DNA from: Thermoproteaceae archaeon | Lineage (GTDB): Archaea; Thermoproteota; Thermoprotei; Thermoproteales; Thermoproteaceae | Length of the DNA stretch: 15,233 bases | Direction of reading: 5' to 3' | Assembly (NCBI GenBank): GCA_020833025.1 | Contig: JAJHRB010000038.1 | Location: 1-15,233 of the forward strand | Shown here: piece after piece, positions 2,955 to 8,237 of the stretch | Position numbering within the stretch: position 1 is the stretch's first letter | Layout: each line of letters opens with the position of its first letter | Program-made: the position numbers and the translations under genes | Notes under the pieces: generated by a model | The model's database searches: none | Told to the model about the DNA's origin: nothing | What the model saw: the letters and a program-made list of their open reading frames with translations, nothing else

Positions 2955-4595
<1,641 letters not shown>

Positions 4596-4615
4596 TTACT
4601 GGTGTGCGCGCGTGC

Positions 4616-4621
4616 TTAAAA
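4616..4621 (-). promoter_or_regulatory. TATA box for pyrG (leaderless spacing)
   Basis: Minus strand TTTTAA, 26-21 nt upstream of ATG 4595. Confidence 0.6.
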
Positions 4622-4664
4622 GCTATGCGCGGAGAGCCGCAGTAATTCTCTGGGCGCACGCTAA

Positions 4665-4728
4665 TCAGCGCCCGCCACGCGGGCTGCCTCTCGCCACCGA
4701 CTCCGCGTGGGTTCAACTCTTCATCGCC
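4665..4728 (-). ncRNA. Candidate box C/D sRNA
   Basis: Minus strand: GGCGATGA (C-like, 4728-4721), AGAGTTGAACCCACG, CGGA (D'-like, 4705-4702), GTGGCGA (degenerate C', 4697-4691), 22-nt spacer, CTGA (D, 4668-4665). About 63 nt, with an A/T-rich element about 25 nt upstream. Confidence 0.5.
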
Positions 4729-4743
4729 GTCCCCCCGTCACTG

Positions 4744-4752
4744 TTTTTTATT
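4744..4752 (-). promoter_or_regulatory. A/T-rich element AATAAAAAA: possible promoter of the candidate sRNA, or a plus-strand T6 terminator
   Basis: T6A run on plus. On minus it lies about 25 nt upstream of the C-like box. Confidence 0.35.
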
Positions 4753-4787
4753 CCTTCTGCGCGCGGTCTCGCCGCCCCGCCTCACGG

Positions 4788-4794
4788 TTATATT
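4788..4794 (+). promoter_or_regulatory. TATA box for the PRTase gene
   Basis: TTATATT begins 26 nt upstream of GTG 4814. Confidence 0.55.
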
Positions 4795-4813
4795 CCGGTT
4801 CCAGCAGTTGTGC

Positions 4814-5359
4814 GTGAGGCTCATTAGCATAGGGGGTCTGAGGGTTCTCGCGCTCTCCTGGCCTGAGGGCATAGCGCTCAGCGAGGCGCTTGCCAGAGAA
4901 GTGCGCGGCGCCGGCTATGTGCCAGATATAATTGTCGCTATTTCGAGAGGCGGGCTGGTGCCTGCTCGCATAATCAGCGATGTACTTGGAGTCGATGACA
5001 TTATTACACTGGGGATCAAGCACTGGAGAGTTGCCGAGAGGCGGGCGCAGAGGCCCGTGCTTTATCACGTCATTGAGGCTGGCGCAGTGCGCGACAAGAG
5101 GGTGCTGGTGGTTGATGAGGTGGCCGACACGGGCAGCACCCTGGCGCTTGCAAAGAGCCTGGTTGAGATGCTGGGCGCGCTGGAGGTGAAAACCGCGGTA
5201 ATTCACTTAAAGGCGACCAGCAGCTTCGCGCCTGACTTCTACGCCGAGAGACTTGAGGACTGGGTCTGGGTGGCTTACCCGTGGAGTCGCTGCGAGGACG
5301 TGAGGGAGCTCAGGAGGCGCGGCATGGACGTGTCCGGGCTGGGCGGGGAGCAGTGTTGA
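4814..5359 (+). CDS. Type I phosphoribosyltransferase (purine/xanthine-guanine PRT-like)
   Basis: IVAISRGGLVPARII and PRPP-binding VLVVDEVADTGSTL, C-terminal WVAYPW. GTG 4814 is preferred over TTG 4808 from TATA spacing. Confidence 0.92.
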   Translation: MRLISIGGLRVLALSWPEGIALSEALAREVRGAGYVPDIIVAISRGGLVPARIISDVLGVDDIITLGIKHWRVAERRAQRPVLYHVIEAGAVRDKRVLVVDEVADTGSTLALAKSLVEMLGALEVKTAVIHLKATSSFAPDFYAERLEDWVWVAYPWSRCEDVRELRRRGMDVSGLGGEQC

Positions 5360-5612
5360 GCCCCTCCACGCGAGCGCGGGAATCCCGCGGGGCTTCCAGA
5401 GCCGTGCCCCCATTTCCCCCCGCGCCGGCCCTCTGCGGCGCGAGCGCTCTGCAGGCTCCGCGGCGTGCCAGGAGCGCGGGGCGGGGAGCCGGGAGGGCTG
5501 ACAGCAGGCCCCTGCCGGTAGAGGCATGTGCCAGCGGCCGTGAGGGCCGCGCTCGCGCTACTCCGCGGCCTCTCTCACCCCCGGCGGGAGCCAGGACGCC
5601 GCTGTGATCGGC

Positions 5613-8237
5613 CTATTGCATTATGCGCGAGAGGATGTAGTTGTAAACACCGCCGTGCTTGAGGTACTCCGTCTCGGCGCGCGTGTACACTGCGAGCTTG
5701 GCTTTTATCTCGTCAACGCGGCCGTTCCTTCTGCGTATGCGGATTAAGACCTCCTTCTCCGGCCAGAACTCTCCCGAGAGGCCGAGGATGTCTATAACCT
5801 CCGAGCCGTCGAGACCCAGCCTGTCGGCTGTGATGCCCTCGGGCAGCCGCACTGGCGCGATGCCGACCATTATTAAGTTCTGCCTGTGAATCCTCTCAAA
5901 GCTCTCGGCAATCACCGCTCTAACGCCGAGGAGTCTCGGCCCCTTTGCCGCCCAGTCCCTGCTCGACCCGACTCCGTAGTTCTTGCCGGCGACTATCACC
6001 AGCGGCACTCCCTCCCTCTTGTAGGCCTCTGCTGCCTCGTACACCGTCATGGCGATGCCCTCGGGGAACTTGATAGTGAGCCCGCCGGGAAGCCCCCCGA
6101 TTTTGTTCACGTAGCCCCTGCTGCAAAACGTGCCGCGCACCATTACCTGCCAGTTGCCCCGGCGCGAGCCGAAAGTCCCGAGCTCCGAGGGGCTGACGCC
6201 CGCGGAGATCAGAAACCTGCCGGCAGGGCTGTCTGCCGGGATCTCGCCGGCAGGGCTTATGTGATCTGTCGTTATGTTGTCCCCCAGCACGAGCAGGGGT
6301 CTCGCGCCCACTATGTCTCCGGCTGCCGCGCCCCCCTCCGCGAGCGGCGATGGCTGTATGTACGTGTCGTCAGGGCGCCAGCTATACAGCGCCCCGGAGG
6401 GGGTCTCCAGCGCGTGCCACTCTTCTGGCACAGGCCTTGTGTACGCCTCCCTGTAGACCTCAGGTCTCGCCCACTCCTCGACCGTGGCGCGTACCTCCTC
6501 CCGCGCCGGCCAGAGGTCGCGCAGGTAGACCGGCCTTCCGTCGGGCGCGTAGGCTAGTGGCTCCGACTCGAGGTCCCGCGTCACAGTTCCAGCTATTGCG
6601 TAGGCCACGACGAGCGGCGGCGACGCGAGATACACCGCGCGGATGTCGGGGTGGATCCTCCCCTCGAAGTTTCTATTTCCTGAGATAACCGCAGCGACAA
6701 GTATGTCGTGCTCCCTCACGGCCCTAATGACGGGCTCCGGCAGGGGGCCCGAGTTTCCTATACACGTCGCGCAGCCGTAGGCGGCGACGTGAAAGCCCAG
6801 CGCGTCGAGATACTTCTGGAGGCCGCTCCTCTCTAGAATCTCCGCGGCGGCTCTCGATCCCGGCGTGAAGCTCGTCTTGACATACGGCGGGGGTCTCACG
6901 CCCAGCTCAGCTGCGCGCCTCGCGAGAAGCCCGACGGCGACCAGGAGATACGGGTTGCTGGTGTTAGTGCAGCTCGCTACTGCGGCTATTACCACATCCC
7001 CATCGCTCAGCACGATACCCCTCCCGTCAATCTCGATCTCAACGCTCTTTTTCGAGCGCCTCCTTTTCCTCTCGCAGAGGAGTTTCATAAAACTGCCGGG
7101 AACCTCCGCCAGCTTTCTTCTATCCCACGGCAGCGTCGGCCCGGCAACGCAGCGCTCCACGGCAGAGAGGTCAAAGTCTATGACGCGGCTGTACTCAGCC
7201 CCAGCGGCCCCGCCGAAGAGCCCTTGCGCCTCGTAATACTTCCTTACTAGGGCAATGTGACTCTCGGGCCTCCCGGTAATTGCGAGATAGCGTAGCGTCT
7301 CCTCGTCAACCGGAAAGAGAGCGACTGTAGCGCCGTACTCCGGAGCCATGTTTGACACGACCGCGCGGTCAGGCACTGTCAGCTTCCTCACGCCATCGCA
7401 GACGAACTCGATGAACGCGTCAACGACACCGGCCTTGCGCAAGAGCTCTGTGAGTGTCAGCGCGACGTCCGTTGCCGTGACGCCAGGCCTGGGCTCGCCG
7501 TAAAGACAAACCGCAACGACGCGCGGCAGCCTAATGGTGACGGGCTCGCCCAGCAGTGCCGCCTCGGCCTCAATCCCGCCTACGCCCCAGCCCACGACCC
7601 CGAGGCCGTTTGTCATGGTCGTGTGGCTGTCGGTTCCTATCACGGTCTCGAAGTAAGCAAGGCCCCCCTCAGCTACGACAACTCTCGCCAGCAGCTCGAG
7701 GTTTACCTGGTGGATGATGCCCGCTCCCGGCGGGAACACCCTCAAGTTTGCAAACGCCTGCTGGGCCCACTTTATGAAGCGGTACCTCTCCTTGTTCCTC
7801 CGGATCTCGAGCGCCACGTTTCGCCTCAGCGCGTCGCGCGACCCCCAGAAGTCAACGCTTACCGAGTGATCTATTACTAGGTCGACAGGCGCCTGCGGAT
7901 TGACGACGAGCGGGTTGCCGCCGGCTCTCGCCACGGCATCGCGCAGGGTCGCAAGGTCCACTAGCACCGGCACTCCCGTGTAGTCTTGCATTATTACACG
8001 CGAGACCCGGATTGCGACCTCGCCCTGCGGCGCCCTGGAGTCCCAGCGCAGCAGCGTCTCGAGGTGCTCCCTCGTCACGCTCCTGCCGTCTAAGTTGCGC
8101 AGGACGTTCTCCAAAAGCACGCGCAGCGAGTACGGCAGCTTGTCAATGTCGTGGCCCTCCTCGCCGAGTGCTGCAATTCTGTAGTAGCGGTATACACTGT
8201 TGCCGACGGAGAGCTTGCCCACGAGGTGCTCCGTCAC
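5613..8237 (-). CDS. acnA: Aconitate hydratase (AcnA/IRP1 type)
   Basis: 874 aa. LPYSLRVLLEN, MQDYTGVP, DLVIDHSV, GTDSHT, cluster Cys in SCTNTSNP and GCATCIGNSG, SGNRNFEGRIH, DHISPAG, GSSRDWAAKG, ESFERIH. Confidence 0.98.
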   Translation of the reverse strand: MTEHLVGKLSVGNSVYRYYRIAALGEEGHDIDKLPYSLRVLLENVLRNLDGRSVTREHLETLLRWDSRAPQGEVAIRVSRVIMQDYTGVPVLVDLATLRDAVARAGGNPLVVNPQAPVDLVIDHSVSVDFWGSRDALRRNVALEIRRNKERYRFIKWAQQAFANLRVFPPGAGIIHQVNLELLARVVVAEGGLAYFETVIGTDSHTTMTNGLGVVGWGVGGIEAEAALLGEPVTIRLPRVVAVCLYGEPRPGVTATDVALTLTELLRKAGVVDAFIEFVCDGVRKLTVPDRAVVSNMAPEYGATVALFPVDEETLRYLAITGRPESHIALVRKYYEAQGLFGGAAGAEYSRVIDFDLSAVERCVAGPTLPWDRRKLAEVPGSFMKLLCERKRRRSKKSVEIEIDGRGIVLSDGDVVIAAVASCTNTSNPYLLVAVGLLARRAAELGVRPPPYVKTSFTPGSRAAAEILERSGLQKYLDALGFHVAAYGCATCIGNSGPLPEPVIRAVREHDILVAAVISGNRNFEGRIHPDIRAVYLASPPLVVAYAIAGTVTRDLESEPLAYAPDGRPVYLRDLWPAREEVRATVEEWARPEVYREAYTRPVPEEWHALETPSGALYSWRPDDTYIQPSPLAEGGAAAGDIVGARPLLVLGDNITTDHISPAGEIPADSPAGRFLISAGVSPSELGTFGSRRGNWQVMVRGTFCSRGYVNKIGGLPGGLTIKFPEGIAMTVYEAAEAYKREGVPLVIVAGKNYGVGSSRDWAAKGPRLLGVRAVIAESFERIHRQNLIMVGIAPVRLPEGITADRLGLDGSEVIDILGLSGEFWPEKEVLIRIRRRNGRVDEIKAKLAVYTRAETEYLKHGGVYNYILSRIMQ

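What the first reader, a model, noticed from the sequence alone, without database searches (positions are those of the whole stretch)
4665..4752. Candidate box C/D guide RNA upstream of pyrG, with tRNA T-arm and 16S decoding-site antisense elements
Seen on minus: A/T-rich element, then GCGATGA ... CGGA ... GTGGCGA ... CTGA over about 63 nt. The D' spacer is antisense to CGUGGGUUCAA(C)UC, which fits tRNA positions 48-61; GCGUGGGUUCRA is what I recall for archaeal tRNA-Leu. The N+5 rule would give Gm52. The D spacer GUGGCGGGCG can pair with 16S CGCCCGUCGC (E. coli 1400-1409; 10 bp including 2 G-U), predicting C1404. Caveats: C' is degenerate, the D spacer is long (22 nt), and the two spacers can pair with each other (CCACGCGG/CCGCGTGG). 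It could therefore be a K-turn-capped hairpin or a leader reading into pyrG.
Basis: partly seen in the sequence, partly recalled or inferred. Interest (0 to 1): 0.7.

Follow-up and report, generated by a model that had tools for sequence, protein, structure and literature searches.

The report
Conserved tRNA-targeting box C/D guide RNA
This is a real small methylation-guide RNA gene (archaeal box C/D sRNA) of a Pyrobaculum-like archaeon, conserved across its whole order and aimed at the T-stem of leucine, serine and arginine tRNAs; it is an ordinary member of a well-catalogued RNA class.

Summary
The motifs are present and far above chance. A 60-nt minus-strand element (4724-4665) has its own A/T-rich promoter box. 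It is conserved from C box to D box in all 17 congeners searched, while its flanks diverge. C box plus D' guide occurs once per genome in 47 of 61 genomes of the order and in none of 58 from other families of the class. Relatives with canonical boxes fix the register: C box AUGAAGA (not GCGAUGA), a 12-nt D' guide GUUGAACCCACG, D' CGGA, C' GUGGCGA, a 22-nt D spacer and D CUGA. The D' guide forms 11 Watson-Crick pairs with tRNA positions 48-58 of Leu, Ser(CGA) and Arg tRNAs of this genome. It is not the Cm56 guide: a separate canonical Cm56 guide lies on contig C91, and Trm56 is missing. The 16S decoding-site match of the D guide is at chance level, so that guide is best called orphan. It is not a pyrG leader, because most relatives carry it on the opposite strand. 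Fibrillarin, Nop5 and L7Ae are encoded. Verdict: a genuine box C/D sRNA, a new member of a known kind. Methylation at G52 is inferred, not shown.

The parts
4744..4752 (-). A/T-rich promoter (TATA-like) box AAUAAAAAA. It overlaps the TAA stop (4750-4748) of the upstream 152-aa ORF.
   Evidence: An A/T-rich 8-mer lies 17-24 nt upstream of the C box in 24 of 28 homologues. That spacing fits an archaeal TATA box with transcription starting at or just before the C box (inferred).
4718..4724 (-). C box AUGAAGA (consensus RUGAUGA; position 5 is A here)
   Evidence: The register is fixed by homologues with AUGAUGA or GUGAUGA at the same column. Across homologues the box reads RUGANGA.
4706..4717 (-). 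D' guide GUUGAACCCACG (12 nt), antisense to tRNA C48-A58. C4710 is the N+5 nucleotide and pairs with G52.
   Evidence: Invariant (R/C-UUGAACCCAC-G/A) in 47 genomes of the order. 11 Watson-Crick pairs with 12 tRNA loci of this genome, and 10 pairs plus 1 G-U with 4 more. Shuffle test 1/1000.
4702..4705 (-). D' box CGGA (degenerate CUGA)
   Evidence: The same column reads CUGA in L005, L007, L010, L015 and L146-L148, and CCGA in L008, L020 and L021. It is variable within Pyrobaculum (CGGC, CGCC and others).
4698..4701 (-). Variable loop GUCG between D' and C'
   Evidence: Length and sequence vary among homologues.
4691..4697 (-). C' box GUGGCGA (RUGRCGA in the genus; UGAUGA, AUGAUGA or GUGGUGA in other genera)
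4669..4690 (-). D spacer, 22 nt. The 3' part UGGCGGGCG (4677-4669) is invariant in genera g1 and g3. The 5' part varies.
   Evidence: The other genera of the order have a 12-15-nt D spacer of unrelated sequence. No target above chance in rRNA.
4665..4668 (-). D box CUGA
   Evidence: Invariant in all g1 and g3 homologues.
4615..4641 (-). Hairpin GCGG-CUCU-CCGC followed by CUUUUAAG. It is a possible stop for the sRNA transcript, and CUUUUAAG (4622-4615) is the likely TATA box of a leaderless pyrG mRNA (ATG at 4595).
   Evidence: Terminator-like hit. The TATA reading is my inference from the 19-nt distance to the ATG.
2955..4595 (-). pyrG (CTP synthase), the downstream neighbour. It is not part of the sRNA.
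   Evidence: 546-aa ORF. 74-85% identical (most 74-82%) to the pyrG of the Pyrobaculum and Thermoproteus relatives.

Best explanation
An independently transcribed archaeal box C/D sRNA of about 60 nt. It would assemble with L7Ae, Nop5 and fibrillarin. Its 12-nt D' guide would pair with the 3' side of the variable region, the 5' strand of the T-stem and the T-loop (positions 48-58) of unfolded precursor tRNAs that carry CGUGGGUUCRA. In this genome these are all five tRNA-Leu genes found, tRNA-Ser(CGA) and the tRNA-Arg family. Fibrillarin is then placed over the nucleotide paired to the fifth guide base upstream of box D', which gives 2'-O-methyl-G52 in the T-stem. The D guide (UGGCGGGCG next to box D, in an unusually long 22-nt spacer) has no target above chance and is treated as orphan, as is common for tRNA-targeting sRNAs. 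Shown here: the boxes, their register, order-wide conservation, the promoter box, target complementarity and presence of the RNP genes. Inferred: expression, RNP assembly and the methylation itself.
For: The 60-nt block from C box to D box is conserved while flanks diverge, in 17 of 17 congeners and in the sister genera. C box plus D' guide occurs exactly once per genome in 47 of 61 genomes of the order and in 0 of 58 genomes of other families; the reversed-pattern control gave 0. Homologues in other genera have fully canonical architecture: AUGAUGA, 12 nt, CUGA, loop, UGAUGA, 12 nt, CUGA. That fixes the D' box and hence N+5 = G52. The guide makes 11 contiguous Watson-Crick pairs with 12 tRNA loci here; 1 of 1000 shuffles does as well. 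The best rRNA match of the D' guide is only 6 bp. A TATA-like box sits at a constant distance. Fibrillarin, Nop5 and L7Ae are encoded. Lui et al. 2018 (PMC6009581) report that one third of Pyrobaculum C/D families target tRNAs, that about 80% of these have one orphan guide, and that a T-stem position (G51) is a predicted target of another family.
Against: No RNA-seq or modification data are available for this genome. I know of no mapped Gm52 in any archaeal tRNA, and a full-text search for 'Gm52' found nothing relevant. Within Pyrobaculum the D' and C' boxes are degenerate (CGGA with GUGGCGA lacks one sheared G-A pair), which could weaken the internal K-loop. The D spacer is about twice the canonical length. 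In this genome an 8-bp pairing between the two spacers could occlude the D' guide in the free RNA. No Rfam family is matched at its gathering score.
Confidence: 0.72

Rival explanations
1. It is a bona fide C/D sRNP that binds the T-arm of these pre-tRNAs but works mainly as a folding or processing chaperone. Little or no methylation occurs, because the internal C'/D' motif is degenerate in Pyrobaculum.
For: D' varies freely within the genus (CGGA, CGGC, CGCC, CGAC, CCUA) and C' often lacks the GA dinucleotide, yet the guide is invariant. Lui et al. 2018 argue for chaperone roles of conserved guides, even with mismatches at N+5.
Against: Many homologues keep canonical CUGA and UGAUGA. The N+5 pair C:G is Watson-Crick in every target. 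Pyrobaculum sRNAs in general tolerate divergent K-motifs (PMC6009581).
Confidence: 0.15
2. It is the guide that replaces the missing Trm56 enzyme and makes Cm56 in the T-loop, as Renalier et al. 2005 showed for P. aerophilum.
For: Trm56 (PF01994) was not found in this genome or in any of the 38 genomes of families f1 and f2 searched. The guide pairs across C56.
Against: C56 pairs with the ninth guide nucleotide upstream of D', not the fifth. A separate sRNA on contig C91 (15673-15626, minus strand) has GGGAUUUGAACG followed by CUGA, which places C56 exactly at N+5. That sRNA is conserved in 17 of 17 congeners. The present family also exists in a genome that has Trm56 (G026).
Confidence: 0.03
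3. It is a dual guide whose D guide also has a real target. The candidates are 16S C1404 (E. coli numbering) in the decoding centre, C72 at the 3' end of tRNA-Arg, or the intron/leader of tRNA-Leu.
For: UGGCGGGCG next to box D is invariant in two genera. It pairs over 10 bp (2 G-U) with 16S CGCCCGUCGC in three congeners. It pairs over 8 bp with GCCCGCCA-3' of seven tRNA-Arg genes that are also D' targets. It pairs perfectly over 10 bp with CGCCCGCCAC just upstream of the 3' exon of tRNA-Leu(CAG) and tRNA-Leu(GAG) in this genome; 17 of 1000 shuffles do as well.
Against: The 16S match is equalled by 260 of 500 shuffles of this G-rich guide. The tRNA-Leu intron match is absent from all 28 other genomes of the family, which nevertheless keep the guide. 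The 8-bp tRNA-Arg match is short. The spacer is 22 nt instead of 12.
Confidence: 0.2
4. It is a chance motif cluster, a structured hairpin, or a 5' leader or attenuator of pyrG.
For: It lies 70 nt upstream of pyrG on the same strand. It has an 8-bp internal pairing. Its fold energy is slightly below that of shuffles (z = -1.35).
Against: The fold is not significant and the pairing is not conserved. In 15 relatives the element is on the strand opposite to pyrG. pyrG has its own TATA-like box about 20 nt before its ATG. In family f2 the element is not next to pyrG at all.
Confidence: 0.02

Closest known systems
Pyrobaculum box C/D sRNA families (110 families, 526 genes; Lui et al. 2018, PMC6009581), specifically the tRNA-targeting ones such as sR64 (predicted G51 in the T-stem)
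   Same: Same genus-level host. Same architecture (C, D', C', D), own promoter, one tRNA guide plus one orphan guide, divergent K-motifs, and a tight intergenic position next to protein genes.
   Different: I could not read the paper's supplementary tables (not held), so I cannot say which numbered family this is, if any. The predicted target here is G52 rather than G51. The D spacer is 20-24 nt in Pyrobaculum and Thermoproteus. The D' guide is conserved across the whole order, whereas that paper says guide-target interactions are rarely conserved beyond the genus.
The Cm56-guiding C/D sRNA of P. aerophilum (Renalier et al. 2005, RNA 11:1051; cited in PMC7912444 and PMC2651775)
   Same: Both are C/D sRNAs whose guides pair with the tRNA T-arm, in lineages that lack Trm56.
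   Different: That function belongs to another gene here (contig C91:15673-15626), whose D guide GGGAUUUGAACG puts C56 at N+5. The window's guide puts G52 at N+5 and matches only tRNAs with a GUGGG T-stem. I identified the C91 RNA as the Renalier type from its geometry; I could not read the original paper.
Rfam RF01309 sR60 (Pyrococcus C/D sRNA)
   Same: Weak similarity over the C box and the start of the D' guide (GAUGA.GAGUU).
   Different: 12.6 bits against a gathering score of 50, E = 2.9. It is not a member.

Membership tests
Archaeal box C/D sRNA | C box RUGAUGA near the 5' end | tested here: met
   AUGAAGA at 4724-4718 (6 of 7). The GA and the terminal GA are kept in nearly all homologues; position 5 varies.
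Archaeal box C/D sRNA | D box CUGA at the 3' end | tested here: met
   CUGA at 4668-4665, invariant in genera g1 and g3.
Archaeal box C/D sRNA | Internal D' (CUGA) and C' (UGAUGA) boxes able to form a K-loop | tested here: inconclusive
   CGGA and GUGGCGA here: one sheared G-A pair is retained and the second is replaced. The same columns are canonical CUGA and UGAUGA in other genera. L7Ae binding was not testable.
Archaeal box C/D sRNA | Guide spacers of about 12 nt | tested here: inconclusive
   The D' spacer is 12 nt (met). The D spacer is 22 nt (not met), against 12-15 nt in the homologues of family f2, genus g2 and family f3.
Archaeal box C/D sRNA | Guide complementary (8 bp or more) to tRNA or rRNA, with a Watson-Crick pair at N+5 | tested here: met
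   D' guide: 11 Watson-Crick pairs with tRNA 48-58, with C:G52 at N+5; 1 of 1000 shuffles does as well. D guide: only chance-level matches.
Archaeal box C/D sRNA | Boxes and guide conserved in relatives, flanks not conserved | tested here: met
Archaeal box C/D sRNA | Host encodes fibrillarin, Nop5 and L7Ae | tested here: met
   Fibrillarin on C72:20393-21070, Nop on C19:12390-13073, L7Ae on C100:11900-12169.
Archaeal box C/D sRNA | Expressed as a stable RNA of about 50-65 nt that directs 2'-O-methylation | not testable with these tools
   No transcript or modification data for this genome.
Rfam C/D families (release 15) | Score at or above a family's gathering threshold | tested here: not met
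   No hit at gathering score. The best is sR60 at 12.6 bits against a threshold of 50.
Cm56-guide C/D sRNA (Trm56 substitute) | C56 paired to the fifth guide nucleotide upstream of box D or D' | tested here: not met
   C56 pairs with the ninth nucleotide. The C91 sRNA meets this feature instead.

The most novel reading that the evidence does not exclude
The order-wide D' guide would direct a so far unmapped 2'-O-methyl-G52 in the T-stem of class II (Leu, Ser) and Arg tRNAs of Thermoproteales. In this genome, the D guide's perfect 10-bp match to the intron/leader just upstream of the 3' exon of two tRNA-Leu genes would let one sRNP bridge intron and T-arm of the same pre-tRNA, coupling methylation or folding to splicing.
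Probability: 0.07. Interest if true: 0.6.

Novelty: new member of a known kind. Interest (0 to 1): 0.3.

Why it matters
The finding adds a correctly delimited C/D sRNA gene to an unannotated MAG. It also shows that one tRNA-directed guide is kept unchanged across an entire archaeal order, in 47 genomes. That is unusual for methylation guides, which are reported to turn over at the genus level. It makes a concrete, testable prediction: Gm52 in Leu, Ser(CGA) and Arg tRNAs. It separates this RNA from the Cm56 guide that stands in for the missing Trm56 enzyme. The biology is otherwise expected for Pyrobaculum, where about 85-90 such genes per genome are already catalogued.

Tried and rejected
1. 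Cm56-guide idea. It looked attractive because Trm56 is absent. I rejected it after strict patterns for a canonical C56 guide failed and a looser pattern then found the true one: G008, and own contig C91.

2. 16S decoding-site target: chance level. A 23S site, CGCCGGCCACUG, pairs at 11 of 12 positions but is mismatched exactly at N+5, and the match is weaker for this genome's guide.

3. tRNA-Leu intron target of the D guide: not conserved in 28 genomes of the family.

4. A tRNA target for the D guide of genus g6 (GGCCUAAACCGA): nothing convincing.

5. Conserved hairpin in the long D spacer: no consistent pairing across homologues by inspection.

6. Rfam: no family matched.

7. Literature. The sequence strings are not in any held paper. 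The supplements of Lui et al. 2018 are not held. Renalier et al. 2005 is not held.

8. Earlier scan notes: nothing relevant.

9. A blastn-short scan of the D spacer against the genome was uninformative because of G+C-rich noise.

Full report
**What is there.** On the minus strand the region reads as follows:
- an A/T-rich box AAUAAAAAA (4752-4744), which overlaps the TAA stop of a 152-aa ORF
- 19 nt of spacer
- AUGAAGA (4724-4718)
- GUUGAACCCACG (4717-4706)
- CGGA (4705-4702)
- GUCG
- GUGGCGA (4697-4691)
- a 22-nt spacer (4690-4669)
- CUGA (4668-4665)

pyrG starts at 4595 and is preceded by its own CUUUUAAG box (4622-4615). The window is contig C36 of a 1.56-Mb, 62.6% G+C, 94%-complete MAG. 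Its pyrG is closest to records titled Pyrobaculum sp. (81% and 77%) and Thermoproteus sp. (74%).

**Is it more than chance?** A search with 205 nt of this region against 40 relatives matched only the roughly 60 nt from C box to D box, in 17 of 17 genomes of the same genus and in the sister genus g3. Alignment shows invariant GAGUUGAACCCACGC and UGGCGGGCGCUGA blocks with unrelated flanks. The 17-nt pattern TGNNGANTTGAACCCAC (C box plus D' guide) occurs once per genome in 47 of 61 genomes of the order. By family the counts are f1 22/28, f2 23/31 and f3 1/2. It occurs in 0 of 58 genomes from twelve other families of the class, and the reversed control pattern was found nowhere. An A/T-rich 8-mer lies 17-24 nt upstream of the C box in 24 of 28 homologues. 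That is the spacing expected for an archaeal TATA box with a start at or just before the C box (inference).

**Box register.** Homologues from other genera are textbook C/D sRNAs. One example is GUUGAUGA-AUUGAACCCACG-CUGA-UUG-GUGGUGA-GGCCUAAACCGA-CUGA (L148). Another is AUGAUGA-AUUGAACCCACG-AUGA-UUG-GUGAUUA-AGCCCAGUACC-CUGA (L159). The D' spacer is then exactly 12 nt, and CGGA is confirmed as the D' position. Within Pyrobaculum the D' box (CGGA, CGGC, CUGA, CCGA and others) and the C' box (RUGRCGA) are degenerate. This agrees with the divergent K-motifs reported for this genus (PMC6009581). Rfam has no matching family.

**Target of the D' guide.**
- CGTGGGTTCAA occurs in 12 tRNA loci of this genome: five tRNA-Leu, tRNA-Ser(CGA) copies and three tRNA-Arg.
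- Four more tRNA loci with the same T-stem have G57 and pair with one G-U.
- The duplex covers C48 to A58 (11 bp). Only 1 of 1000 shuffled guides does as well on the tRNA set.
- The best rRNA match of this guide is 6 bp.
- Counting five nucleotides upstream of D' gives C4710, which pairs with G52 of the T-stem.
- tRNAs with a CCGGG or CCCGG T-stem are mismatched at positions 49-50.
It remains a prediction.

**Not the Cm56 guide.** Trm56 (PF01994) is missing from this genome and from all 38 genomes of families f1 and f2 searched, and is present in f3. This recalls the published replacement of Trm56 by a C/D sRNP in P. aerophilum (PMC7912444 and PMC2651775). In the window's RNA, however, C56 pairs with the ninth nucleotide, not the fifth. 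A looser pattern search found the real Cm56 guide, first in G008 and then on this genome's contig C91 at 15673-15626 on the minus strand. It reads GUGACGA...GUGAUCG-GGGAUUUGAACG-CUGA, with C56 at N+5. That RNA is conserved in 17 of 17 congeners and also occurs in f2. The window's family also exists in G026, which has Trm56. The two RNAs are therefore independent.

**The D guide.** In genera g1 and g3 the D spacer is 20-24 nt, with an invariant UGGCGGGCG next to box D. Other genera have an unrelated spacer of 12-15 nt.
It is equalled by 260 of 500 shuffles of this G-rich sequence. The corresponding rRNA regions are not assembled here.
- tRNA-Arg: there is an 8-bp match to the 3' end GCCCGCCA of seven tRNA-Arg genes that are also D' targets.
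- tRNA-Leu: there is a perfect 10-bp match to CGCCCGCCAC just upstream of the 3' exon of tRNA-Leu(CAG) and tRNA-Leu(GAG) (17 of 1000 shuffles). This match is absent from all 28 other genomes of the family, so it cannot explain the guide's conservation.
- I treat the D guide as orphan. This fits the report that about 80% of tRNA-targeting Pyrobaculum sRNAs have one guide without a target (PMC6009581).

**Not a pyrG leader or a hairpin.** The element sits between a homologue of the 152-aa ORF and pyrG in most of family f1. In 15 relatives it is on the strand opposite to pyrG. It is co-directional only in this window and in L018 and L019 of genus g3. In f2 it is not next to pyrG. The predicted fold is not significant (z = -1.35). 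The 8-bp CCACGCGG/CCGCGUGG pairing is specific to this genome.

**Machinery.** Fibrillarin, Nop5 and L7Ae are encoded.

**Verdict.** This is a genuine box C/D sRNA gene. It is a new instance of a class that is exhaustively catalogued in Pyrobaculum. I could not check which numbered family it is, because the supplements are not held. The parts worth remembering are the order-wide invariance of its tRNA guide, the untested Gm52 prediction, and the doubled D spacer in two genera.

Noticed in passing
own genome contig C91:15626-15673 (minus strand); locus L050: A second T-arm-directed C/D sRNA: GUGACGA-AGGGCUGCGGG..GUGAUCG-GGGAUUUGAACG-CUGA. Its D guide puts tRNA C56 at N+5. It is the likely Cm56 guide that stands in for the missing Trm56. 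It is conserved in 17 of 17 congeners, in genus g3, and in some f2 genomes.
   Followed up: yes
genomes G001-G040 (relatives): Trm56 (PF01994) was not found in any of the 24 genomes of f1 or the 14 genomes of f2. It is present in both f3 genomes. The loss therefore appears to cover two whole families of the order, not only P. aerophilum.
   Followed up: partly
own genome C89:53513-53579 (minus strand) and C102:3150-3216 (plus strand): tRNA-Leu(CAG) and tRNA-Leu(GAG) 3' parts are preceded by a G+C-rich intron or leader, CGCCCGCCACCACCCGCCCAG. A matching 5' half, ending in GGGUGGCGGGUG, lies about 1.5 kb away on C89. These may be long-intron or split tRNA-Leu genes. The leader is perfectly complementary to the sRNA's D guide in this genome only.
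   Followed up: partly
window 4600-4760 compared with L004-L019, L066 and L071: The sRNA gene with its promoter is inverted relative to its flanking genes (152-aa ORF homologue and pyrG) in this genome and in two g3 genomes, compared with 15 other relatives. The small gene has flipped in place at least once.
   Followed up: partly
window 4669-4690 and homologues: In Pyrobaculum and genus g3 the D spacer is about 12 nt longer than in other genera. Its first 12 nt (GAGCCUGCCCAG) resemble the ancestral 12-nt D guide (GGCCUAAACCGA) and are followed by CAGU. This could be a decayed D box with a new CUGA recruited 8 nt downstream (speculation).
   Followed up: no
window 4748-5206 and 5207-5527 (minus strand): Two ORFs upstream of the sRNA (152 and 106 aa) have no Pfam family. 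The 152-aa ORF has homologues at the same position in congeners (31-40% identity). Further upstream is an aconitase (5613-8237).
   Followed up: partly
own genome: The assembly holds only positions 4-828 of the 16S rRNA (contig C81) and no 23S rRNA. rRNA targets of guide RNAs therefore cannot be tested on this genome itself.
   Followed up: yes
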